Made by a program: the position numbers and the translations under genes. A DNA stretch of 64,000 nucleotides from the human T2T-CHM13v2.0 reference genome, Homo sapiens: the NCBI RefSeq assembly GCF_009914755.1, contig NC_060931.1. One strand, 5' to 3'. Below are positions 27,001-30,000 of the stretch, piece after piece (positions within the stretch are counted from its first letter, which is position 1; every line of letters starts with the position of its first letter). The notes under the pieces are model-generated. The model made no database searches and was not told the DNA's origin. It saw only the letters and a list, made by a program, of their open reading frames with translations.

Positions 27001-30000
27001 GCCTCAATTTTGGAGCCTGTTATTGGTCTATTCAGAGATTCTACTTTTTCCTAGTTTAGTCATGGGAGTTGTATATGTCCAGGAATTTATCTGTTTCTTC
27101 TGAATTTTCTAGTTTATTTTCGTAGAGGTATTTATAGTATTCTCTGATGGTAGTCTGTGTTTCTGTGGGATCGGTGGTGATATCCCCTTTATCATTTTTT
27201 ATTGTGTCTATTTGATTCTTCTCTCTTTTCTTTTTTATTAGTCTTGCTAGCAGTCTATCAATTTTGTTGATCTTTTGAAAAAAACAGCTTCTGGATTCAT
27301 TGATTTTTTTTTTGAAGGAATTTTTGTGTCTCTATTTCTTTTAGTTCTGCTCTGATCTTAGTTATTTCTTGCCTTCTGCTAGCTTTTGAATTTGTTCTTG
27401 CTTCTCTAGTTCTTTTAATTGTGACATTAGGGTGTCAATTTTAGATCTTTCCTGATTTCTCTTTTGGGCATTTAGTGCTATAAATTTCCCTCTACACACT
27501 GCTTTAAATGTGTCCCAGTGATTCTGGAACACTGTGTCTTTGTTCTCATTGGTTTCAAAGAACATCTTTATTTCTGCCTTCATTTTGTTATTTACCCAGT
27601 AGTCATTCAGGAGCAGGTTGTTCAGTTTCCATGTAGTTGTGCGGTTTTGAGTGAGTTTCTTAATCCTGAGTTCTAACTTGATTGCACTGTGGTCTGAGAG
27701 AGAGTTTGTTGTGATTTCTGATCTTTTACATGTACTGAGAAGTTCTTTGCTTCCAATTATGTGGTCAATTTTAGAATAAGTGCTATGTGGTGATGAGAAG
27801 AATGTATATTCTGTTGATTTGGGGTGGAGAGTTCTGTAGATGTCTGTTAGTTCTGCTTGGTGCAGAGCTGAGTTCAAGTCCTGGATATCCTTGTTAACCT
27901 TCTGTTTCATTGATCTGTCTAATATTGACAGTGGGGTATTAAAGTCTCCCATTATAATGGTATGGAAATCTAAGTCTCTTTGTAGGTCACTAAGGACTTG
28001 CTTTATGAATCTGGGTACTCCTGTATTGGGTGCATATATATTTAGGATAGTTAGCTCTTCTTGTTGAATTGATCCCTTTACCATTATGTAATGGCCTTGT
28101 TTGTCCCTTTTGATCTTTGTTGGTTTAAAGTCTATTTTATCAGAGACTAGGATTGCAACCCCTGCTTTTTTTTTTTTTTTTTTTTTGCTTTCTATTTGCT
28201 TGGTAAATATTCCTCCATCCCTTTATTTTGAGCCTATGTGTATCTCTGCATGTGAGATGGGTCTCCTGAATACAGCACACTGATGGGTCTTGACTCTTTA
28301 TCCAATTTGCCCATTTGTGTCTTTTAATTGGGGCATTTAGCCCATTTACATTTAAGGTTACTGTTGTTTTGTGTGAATTGGAGCCTGTCATTATGATGTT
28401 AGCTGGTTATTTTGCCTGTTAATTGATGCAGTTTCTTCATAGCATCGATGGTCTTTACAATTTGGCATGTTTTTGCAGTGGCTGGTACCGGTTGTTTCTT
28501 TCCATGTTTAGTGCTTCCTTCAGGAGCTCCTGTAAGGCAGGCCTGGTGGTGACAAAATCTCTCAGCATTTGCTTGTCTGTAAAGGATTTTATTTCTCCTT
28601 CACTTATGAAGCTCAGTTTGACTGGATATGAAATTCTGGGTTGCAAATTCTTTTCTTTAAGAATGTTGAATATTGGCCCCCACTCTCTTCTGGCTTATAG
28701 GGTTTCTGCCGAGAGATCCACTGTTAGTCTGATGGGCTTCCTTCCCTTTGTGGGTAACCTGACCTTTCTCTCTGGCTGCCCTTAACATTTTTTCCTTCAT
28801 TTCAACCTTGGTGAATCTAACAATTATGTGTCTTGGGGTTGCTCTTCTTGAGGAGTATCTTTGTGGTGATCTCTGTATTTCCTGAATTTGAATGTTGGCC
28901 TGCCTTGCTAGGTTGGGGAAATTCTCCTGGATAATATCCTGAAGAGTGTTTTCCAATTTGGTTCCATTCTCCCCATCACTTTCAGGTACACCAATCAAAC
29001 ATAGATTTGGTCTTTTCACATAGTCCCATATTTCTTGGAGGCTTTGTTCATTTCTTTTTACTCTTTTTTCTCTAACCTTGTTTTCTCTCTTCATTTCATT
29101 CATTTGATCTTCAATCACTGATAACCTTCTTCTACTTCATCGAATCGGGTATTGAAGCTTGTGTATGCATCACGAAGTTCTCATGCCATGGTTTTCAGCT
29201 CCATCAGGTCATTTAAGGTCTTCTCTACACTGTTTATTCTAGTTAGCCATTTGTCTAACCTTTTTTCAAGGTTTTTAGCTTCCTTGTGATGGGTTTGAAC
29301 ATGCTCCTTTAGCTTAGGGAAGTTTGTTATTACCGACCTTCTGACGCCTACTTCTGCCAACTCATTAAAGTCATTCTCCATCCACCTTTGTTCCGTTGCT
29401 GACGAGGAACTGTGATCCTTTGGAGGAGAAGAGGTGCTCTGGTTTTTAGAATTTTCAGCTTTTCTGCTCTGGGTTTTCCCCATCGTTATGGTTTTATCTA
29501 CCTTTGGTCTTTGATGTTGGTAATCTACAGATGGGGTTTCGGTGTGGATGTCCTTTTTGTTGATGTTGGTGCTATTCGTTTCTGTTCGTTAGCTTTTCTT
29601 CTAACAATCAGGTCCCTTAGCTGCAGGTCTGTTGGAGTTTGCTAGAAGTCCACTCCAGATCCTGTTTGCCTGGGTGTCACCAGCCGAGGCTTGGTTGGAA
29701 ATGCAGAAATCACCCGTTTTCTGCGTTGATCATGCTGGGAGCTGCAGACCGGAGCTGTTCCTGTTCAGCCATCTTGGAATGGATGTCCTCCACATCCATC
29801 TTTTCTAAGAATTACAAAATATTTGATTATCTGGATGTAGCATAAGTTATTTAACCAGTTTTGTATTGATGGACACTTGAGATGTGTTTAGTTTTGTGTT
29901 ATTAATATTTTATGAAGTGCTCCAGTCAGTTTCCTTGTACATCTATCTTTGTGTACTTTGTAAAGTAGATTTGTAGGATGAAGTCTTAGCAGTATAATTG

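What the first reader, a model, noticed from the sequence alone, without database searches (positions are those of the whole stretch)
29484..29790. L1PA6-like element appears to be a SpIRE: its 5'UTR is missing between a splice donor and acceptor
Seen: on the minus strand the L1 keeps its true 5' end (YY1 motif, TSD), yet the 5'UTR is only ~307 nt instead of ~1 kb. After ~100 nt it reads TTTCCAACCAAG|CCTCGGCTGGTGACACCCAGGCAAACAGG, with the junction at 29690/29689. Recalled knowledge: in L1PA consensus the left side continues with the donor ...CCAACTGAG|GTAC (about nt 97), and the right side follows the acceptor ...TTCTGCAG|CCTCCGCTGGTGATACC. That acceptor lies in the 129-bp ZNF93-target segment lost from younger L1s. 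This matches the described SpIRE 97/790 class using the older acceptor. Inference: a spliced L1 mRNA was retrotransposed here. It lost most of the internal promoter and the antisense promoter/ORF0 region, which would otherwise point along CPED1 sense toward the exon at 40088.
Basis: partly seen in the sequence, partly recalled or inferred. Interest (0 to 1): 0.8.

Follow-up and report, generated by a model that had tools for sequence, protein, structure and literature searches.

The report
Spliced L1 copy in CPED1 intron
This old, dead L1 retrotransposon in a CPED1 intron was copied from an L1 RNA that had lost about 730 bases of its 5' leader by splicing; such copies are already described, and this one is simply missing from the published list.

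Summary
A 5.4-kb L1 lies on the minus strand at about 24352-29790. It has a 17-nt target-site duplication, a short poly(A) tail and the native L1 5' terminus, but a 5'UTR of only 307 nt. The break is at 29690|29689.

Fourteen related unspliced L1s in the same genome carry 700-756 extra bases there. In the six read base by base, the extra segment starts at ...CCAACTGAG|GT (five of six) and ends at ...TTCTGCAG|CCTC (five of six). The missing piece is therefore an exact GT...AG intron.

This is the published SpIRE97/853 class of Larson et al. 2018: donor G98U99, acceptor A851G852 inside the 129-bp ZNF93 segment. The copy carries L1PA6-type markers and is absent from the paper's nine listed copies, which were found with a probe requiring more than 95% identity.

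A junction 31-mer finds 78 places in this genome against 0 for the control, about 52 of them independent insertions. Spliced and unspliced copies are interspersed in a star-like tree, which fits recurrent splicing rather than a spliced lineage. The element is dead, with 12 stops in ORF1. Primate orthologues could not be checked.

Verdict: real, well explained, a new member of a known kind, of modest interest.

The parts
29788..29804 (-). 5' copy of the target-site duplication (AAAAGATGGATGTGGAG). Its last 3-4 bases overlap the possible first bases of the L1.
   Evidence: 15 of 17 identical to 24355-24339; 1 of 1000 shuffles reached this length.
29690..29790 (-). L1 'exon 1': from the native 5' terminus of this subfamily (...GACATCCATTCCAAGATGGCTG...) to the last base before the G98U99 donor.
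   Evidence: other copies, spliced and unspliced, begin with the same ...TCC(G/A)TTCCAAGATGG terminus; unspliced relatives continue with GTACC here.
29689..29690 (-). Splice junction (AAG|CCTC).
29484..29689 (-). 'Exon 2' part of the 5'UTR (206 nt). The first ~65-69 nt (29689 to about 29621) are the retained 3' part of the 129-bp ZNF93 segment, ending at a CAG (29623-29621). I infer that this CAG is the AG used by SpIRE97/790 in younger L1s.
   Evidence: Fig 5 legend gives A851G852 and A916G917 in L1PA3 numbering; published SpIRE97/853 copies read the same.
28455..29483 (-). ORF1 remnant, with 12 in-frame stops.
   Evidence: Pfam Tnp_22_trimer (1e-19) and Transposase_22 (3.9e-57) in 28657-29136.
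24730..28222 (-). ORF2 remnant, broken into many short frames. The endonuclease domain lies in 27362-28222 and the reverse transcriptase in 26560-26946.
   Evidence: fragmented ORFs. Exo_endo_phos 3.5e-09, RVT_1 1.2e-08.
24352..24729 (-). End of ORF2, 3'UTR and short poly(A) tail (8 A at 24359-24352).
24339..24355 (-). 3' copy of the target-site duplication (AAAAGATGGATATAGAG). Its first 4 A overlap the poly(A) tail.

Best explanation

The proposed sequence of events is:
1. A full-length L1 was transcribed. A rare intra-5'UTR splice joined the G98U99 donor to the A851G852 acceptor inside the 129-bp ZNF93 segment, removing about 730 nt. The GT...AG boundaries are shown here.
2. The spliced mRNA still encoded ORF1p and ORF2p. 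It was inserted by target-primed reverse transcription into a CPED1 intron, antisense to the gene. The TSD, the poly(A) tail and a TTTT/C-type cleavage site are shown here.
3. The copy arrived without most of the sense promoter and, by recalled position, without the antisense promoter and ORF0 region. It is therefore inferred to have been transcriptionally crippled from the start.
4. It then decayed; ORF1 alone carries 12 stops. It has no indicated function today.
For: - **Junction sequence and coordinates** are as reported.
- **Unspliced relatives.** The six read base by base show CCAACTGAG|GTACC at the left boundary and TTCTGCAG|CCTC(C/T)GCTGG at the right, with 729-759 nt between.
- **Experimental support in print.** Larson et al. 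detected this splice by RT-PCR from a 5'UTR carrying the L1PA4 129-bp segment, named the genomic copies SpIRE97/853, and listed nine. Their printed copies show the same junction string.
- **Recurrence.** The junction 31-mer with up to 3 mismatches hits 78 places, against 0 for the reversed control. All nine published copies were recovered, matched by chromosome and approximate position. Of the 70 places held, 51 have gap 0, and all 18 further places fetched later align across the junction.
- **Insertion hallmarks.** The TSD is 15 of 17 identical, reached by 1 of 1000 shuffles. The poly(A) tail is present. The length of 5,439 nt compares with 5,401-5,510 for the published full-length members.
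- **L1 identity.** ORF1 and ORF2 domains are found.
- **L1PA6 type.** The copy has the extra ~25 nt in the 3' part of the UTR, and the ORF1 coiled-coil sequence, that published L1PA6 copies show and L1PA5 copies lack. Identity to three published L1PA6 copies is 0.914-0.919, against 0.904 for an L1PA5 copy.
Against: - No orthologous or empty site from another primate could be examined, so the state of the 5'UTR at the time of insertion is inferred, not seen.
- The window copy differs from the common junction string at 3 of 31 positions. These are read as later substitutions.
- Promoter loss was not measured for this class or this copy. It is inferred because the deletion includes the whole region removed in SpIRE97/622, whose reporter construct had reduced activity (abstract).
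- Subfamily assignment rests on comparison with labelled published copies, not on a RepeatMasker or Dfam run.
Confidence: 0.93

Rival explanations
1. This copy descends from an already spliced element. A SpIRE97/853 driven by a nearby cellular promoter would have retrotransposed again, so the splice happened one generation earlier.
For: Many copies share the junction. In the first tree the window sits among spliced copies only. One preprint reports a SpIRE97/622-type L1PA2 that regained activity from a gene promoter (passages read).
Against: - The cleaned tree is star-like. The window has a 0.056 terminal branch and no supported sister (node support 0.06-0.6).
- Median identity of the window is 0.910 to 20 spliced copies and 0.9125 to 10 unspliced or unassigned copies of the middle group.
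- The largest spliced-versus-unspliced column difference (0.62) was reached by 6 of 200 label shuffles. It lies at a CpG next to the acceptor, where the unspliced sample was biased toward the window's own bases.
- The CA variant at that CpG occurs in 439 unspliced acceptors.
Confidence: 0.05
2. A full-length L1PA6 inserted here and later lost about 730 bp by a genomic deletion that happens to fall at GT...AG.
For: Only 2 nt of microhomology (AG) exist at the two boundaries. No primate orthologue was examined.
Against: The same base-exact junction is found at about 52 independent insertion sites with different flanks. It coincides with a donor and an acceptor shown to splice in cells.
Confidence: 0.015
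3. The short 5'UTR marks a separate, self-propagating L1 subfamily rather than repeated splicing accidents.
For: A strongly supported clade of 11 sequences (10 places; one duplicated insertion enters three times), support 0.999, contained only spliced copies.
Against: - That clade had no unspliced members sampled because the sample was chosen by likeness to the window.
- A search with one of its members found 33 non-junction matches at 91-93% identity (30 starting at query position 49, three at 51-57). The other five spliced copies scored 89-90%.
- Spliced copies carry three different subfamily-type 5' termini, as expected if successive master elements were each spliced.
Confidence: 0.01

Closest known systems
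SpIRE97/853 (Larson et al. 2018, PLoS Biol 16:e2003067; sections 7, 16, 17, 21, 22 and supplements S1 Data/S1 Table read)
   Same: It uses the same donor (G98U99) and the same acceptor (A851G852 in the 129-bp segment). The junction string matches the printed L1PA5 and L1PA6 copies. Length, TSD and poly(A) hallmarks agree, and the subfamily range (L1PA5-L1PA6) is the same.
   Different: It is not among the nine listed copies. There is no chromosome 7 row in that sheet, and no CPED1 or C7orf58 string in any supplement. It was probably missed because the BLAT probe was built from an L1RP/L1PA4 hybrid and hits needed more than 95% identity.
SpIRE97/790
   Same: It uses the same donor and is also an intra-5'UTR splice that keeps both ORFs.
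   Different: It uses the next AG downstream (A788G789 in L1.3, A916G917 in L1PA3). It is found only in L1PA1-L1PA2 and arose after the 129-bp deletion. In the window that AG is inferred to be at 29622-29621, 68 nt beyond the junction actually used.
SpIRE97/622
   Same: It uses the same donor and has the same consequence, loss of promoter elements. It is the most abundant published class, with 116 copies from L1PA1 to L1PA6.
   Different: Its acceptor is about 230 nt further 5', so it keeps more of the 5'UTR.

Membership tests
SpIRE97/853 | L1 with its own 5' terminus retained up to nt 97 (exon 1) | tested here: met
   the 5' terminus ...TCCATTCCAAGATGG... is that of other spliced and unspliced copies of this type; relatives align from query position 8-18.
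SpIRE97/853 | Missing segment begins exactly at the G98U99 donor | tested here: met
   six unspliced relatives continue CCAACTGAG|GT (5 of 6; one reads GC).
SpIRE97/853 | Missing segment ends exactly at the A851G852 acceptor inside the 129-bp ZNF93 segment | tested here: met
   TTCTGCAG|CCTC in 5 of 6 (one mutated to CAT). One search places this acceptor in the 129-bp segment; printed SpIRE97/853 copies read ...CCAACTGAGCCTC(C/T)(G/A)CTGGTGATACC.
SpIRE97/853 | Hallmarks of endonuclease-dependent TPRT (TSD, poly(A), T-rich cleavage site) | tested here: met
   17-nt TSD (15 of 17), 8-A tail, and TTTT/C on the cleaved strand read from the flank.
SpIRE97/853 | Short 5'UTR present from the time of insertion (same state in orthologues) | not testable with these tools
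   No primate genomes are on hand.
SpIRE97/853 | Reduced promoter activity of the spliced 5'UTR | not testable with these tools
   This needs a reporter assay. It is inferred from published assays on other classes (abstract).
SpIRE97/790 | Acceptor A788G789 (A916G917 in L1PA3) and L1PA1-L1PA2 subfamily | tested here: not met
   The junction lies 68 nt 5' of that AG. The class is limited to L1PA1-L1PA2.
L1PA6 subfamily | Sequence markers of copies labelled L1PA6 by RepeatMasker | tested here: inconclusive
   The copy shares the extra ~25 nt of UTR, the 5' terminus type and the ORF1 type with published L1PA6 copies, at identity 0.914-0.919. In the tree it lies just outside the clade holding them, toward an older group. 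No Dfam or RepeatMasker run was possible, so L1PA7 is not excluded.

The most novel reading that the evidence does not exclude
SpIRE97/853 is not a minor class of nine copies. It would be the second most abundant SpIRE class, with about 52 independent insertions, and it reaches back into a subfamily older than L1PA6. On this reading the acceptor inside the 129-bp segment was a sustained drain on L1 during the L1PA7-L1PA5 era, and its removal may have added to the advantage of the 129-bp deletion beyond ZNF93 escape. A bolder version is that a few of these copies, helped by nearby promoters, seeded further copies.
Probability: 0.12. Interest if true: 0.5.

Novelty: new member of a known kind. 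Interest (0 to 1): 0.28.

Why it matters
For this locus it matters little. The element is an inert, roughly 25-30-million-year-old intronic L1 that arrived without most of its promoters, so it is an unlikely source of sense or antisense transcripts in CPED1.

For the field, the by-product is a correction of scale. A probe tolerant of divergence finds about 52 independent SpIRE97/853 insertions in T2T-CHM13 where nine were published, including copies of an apparently older subfamily. That changes estimates of how often spliced L1 RNAs were retrotransposed before the 129-bp deletion.

Tried and rejected
- **Inverted copy of the TSD at the 5' end.** I first read ACATCCAT at the 5' end as an inverted copy of the TSD. 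One search shows it is the native 5' terminus of this L1 type, so the idea was dropped.
- **CA variant as a marker of a spliced lineage.** CCTCCACTGG seemed specific to spliced copies, since none of the six unspliced relatives had it. One search found 439 unspliced acceptors with it. Rejected.
- **All-spliced clade as a lineage.** The clade seen was a sampling artefact.
- **Search for variants private to spliced copies.** The result was borderline (6 of 200 shuffles) and is explained by how the unspliced sample was chosen.
- **Rows dropped before the cleaned tree.** 24 of the 70 sequences were removed: truncated or partial copies, and segmental-duplicate copies of one insertion, of which three representatives were kept.
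- **Primate orthologues, Dfam and RepeatMasker.** No tool was available.
- **Literature.** Searches for a larger published list (and the passages) found none in the held library. Subscription papers and bioRxiv supplements were not visible.

Full report
**1. What is in the sequence**

Read on the minus strand, an L1 begins near 29790 with ...GGAGGACATCCATTCCAAGATGGCTGAACAGG.... It reaches the ORF1 start codon at 29483-29481, so the 5'UTR is 307 nt.

The element ends at ...AGTATAATAAAAAAAA, with the poly(A) tail at 24359-24352. It is flanked by a 17-nt direct repeat, 29804-29788 and 24355-24339. The two copies are 15 of 17 identical, and only 1 of 1000 shuffles of the 3' flank reached that length. 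The total length is 5,439 nt.

Pfam finds the L1 ORF1 trimerisation and RNA-binding domains (28657-29136), the endonuclease domain (27362-28222) and the reverse transcriptase (26560-26946). The reading frames are broken: ORF1 alone has 12 stops.

**2. Is the missing piece an intron?**

I searched the window's own genome with the 307-nt 5'UTR. That returned 21 other places matching across the whole query, and others matching only from query position 100 or 102 onward.

Across the 70 distinct places I eventually held:
- 51 have the two halves adjacent (gap 0).
- 15 have a gap over 500 nt: 14 at 700-756 nt and one at 1009 nt.
- 4 gave no match to the first half.

In six unspliced relatives read base by base, the left boundary is ...TTTCCAACTGAG|GTACCTGG.... 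It is GT in 5 of 6 and GC in one. The right boundary is ...GCTGTTCTGCAG|CCTC(C/T)GCTGGTGA.... It is AG in 5 of 6, and one is mutated. The absent segment is therefore a GT...AG intron of about 730 nt with a pyrimidine-rich tract before the AG. An unspliced 5'UTR of this type is about 1.03-1.06 kb.

**3. What is known**

Larson et al. 2018 (PMC5860796; I read the abstract, sections 7, 16, 17, 21 and 22, S1 Table part 2 and S1 Data part 12) describe exactly this event. When the 129-bp L1PA4 segment that carries the ZNF93 site is placed in an L1 5'UTR, RT-PCR detects a splice from G98U99 to a new acceptor, A851G852, inside that segment. A BLAT search then found nine genomic 'SpIRE97/853' copies, labelled L1PA5, L1PA6 or L1PA4-6. 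The printed copies read ...CCAACTGAGCCTC(C/T)(G/A)CTGGTGATACC... across the junction, the same as here.

It occurs only in L1PA1-L1PA2, after the 129-bp deletion. In the window I infer that this AG is the CAG at 29623-29621.

The window's copy is not listed. The SpIRE(97-853) sheet has no chromosome 7 row, and neither 'CPED1' nor 'C7orf58' occurs in any of the eight supplementary files. The reason is probably methodological: the probe came from an L1RP/L1PA4 construct, and hits had to share more than 95% identity with it.

**4. Subfamily and age**

The window shares three features with the published L1PA6 copies:
- an extra stretch of about 25 nt in the 3' part of the UTR, which the L1PA5 copies lack;
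- the same 5' terminus type (...TCC(G/A)TTCCAAGATGG);
- the same ORF1 coiled-coil sequence type.

Over 1,471 aligned columns it is 0.914-0.919 identical to three published L1PA6 copies. The figure is 0.904 for a published L1PA5 copy and 0.876 (median) for an older-looking group.

In the tree it sits just outside the clade with the labelled L1PA6 copies, on a terminal branch of 0.056. 'L1PA6-like' is therefore fair, and L1PA7 is not excluded without RepeatMasker. Larson et al. give about 27 million years for L1PA6. The branch length is of that order under a recalled neutral rate of about 0.2% per million years.

**5. How common is the junction, and is there a spliced lineage?**

A 31-nt junction motif with up to 3 mismatches hits 78 places, against 0 for the reversed control. 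All nine published copies are among them, matched by chromosome and approximate position. One more copy (L108) turned up.

Of the 78 places:
- 23 lie in the first 12 Mb of the acrocentric chromosomes.
- Four more (C1:127.9 Mb, C3:95.6 Mb, C9:76.76 Mb and Y:11.4 Mb) belong with these. They share the flank of the C3:75.85 Mb copy or cluster tightly with the acrocentric copies.

Together these are segmental duplicates of one insertion. That leaves about 52 independent insertions. All 18 places fetched align across the junction.

The copies carry three different 5' terminus types...GGAGGTTCCAAGATGG...CCGTTCCAAGATGG and ...GCTGGCAAGATGG. This is what successive subfamilies would leave.

The cleaned tree uses 46 of the 70 sequences; 24 truncated or duplicate rows were dropped. 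It is star-like, with spliced and unspliced copies interspersed in its middle and younger parts. The window is no closer to spliced copies (median 0.910) than to unspliced ones (0.9125).

One all-spliced clade exists (support 0.999), but it reflects how I sampled. A search with one of its members found 33 matches that do not cross the junction, 30 starting at query position 49 and three at 51-57. These score 91-93% identity, against 89-90% for the other five spliced copies.

The largest frequency difference between spliced and unspliced copies (0.62) was reached by 6 of 200 label shuffles. It lies at a CpG beside the acceptor, where my unspliced sample was biased toward the window's own bases. 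The CA variant there also occurs in 439 unspliced acceptors.

For scale, the unspliced donor motif with up to 3 mismatches hits 8,480 places, but that motif also admits younger subfamilies. Recurrent, independent splicing of the main L1 lineage is therefore the best reading. A few secondary copies cannot be excluded.

**6. Consequences at this locus**

The L1 is antisense to CPED1, in the intron before the exon at 40088-40205. The deletion includes everything removed in SpIRE97/622, a class reported to have reduced promoter activity (abstract). It also destroys the donor-overlapping RUNX3 site described.

The deleted part also held the antisense promoter and ORF0; this is recalled knowledge, not a call. 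No function is indicated for the copy today.

**7. Limits**

- No primate orthologue, no RepeatMasker or Dfam run and no expression data were available.
- Unspliced comparison elements were chosen by likeness to the window.
- The genome search scores only the best 40 candidates per DNA query, so counts are lower bounds.
- Literature searches cover only the held open-access library.

**Verdict**

It is a new, unlisted member of a known kind, of modest interest.

Noticed in passing
Genome-wide (one search list; loci L002-L108): The SpIRE97/853 junction occurs at 78 places, plus one more found. That is about 52 independent insertions against nine published. All nine published copies were recovered.
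   Followed up: yes
L040 (C3:75.85 Mb), L042-L045, L061, L066, L079-L090, L092, L098: One SpIRE97/853 insertion has been copied by segmental duplication to 23 places on acrocentric short arms, and to C1:127.9 Mb, C3:95.6 Mb, C9:76.76 Mb and Y:11.4 Mb. The copies share the same 5' flank or show near-zero branch lengths.
   Followed up: partly
L015, L021, L027, L069, L070, L072, L074, L078, L101, L103 and others: A group of spliced copies has a different 5' terminus (GCTGGCAAGATGG), longer terminal branches and 83-87% identity to the window. It probably belongs to a subfamily older than L1PA6, where the paper reports no SpIRE97/622. No subfamily label could be assigned here.
   Followed up: partly
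L023-L028 (unspliced relatives), just 5' of the acceptor: Five of the six unspliced relatives carry a tandem duplication of about 17 nt (CAATATTTGCTGTTCTG twice) immediately before the acceptor AG. L029 has a single copy. This could affect the pyrimidine tract and branch-point spacing.
   Followed up: no
L058 (C4:47.89 Mb): This unspliced relative has a 1009-nt gap instead of about 730 nt, and a different sequence at the donor position. It probably carries an insertion or rearrangement in its 5'UTR.
   Followed up: no
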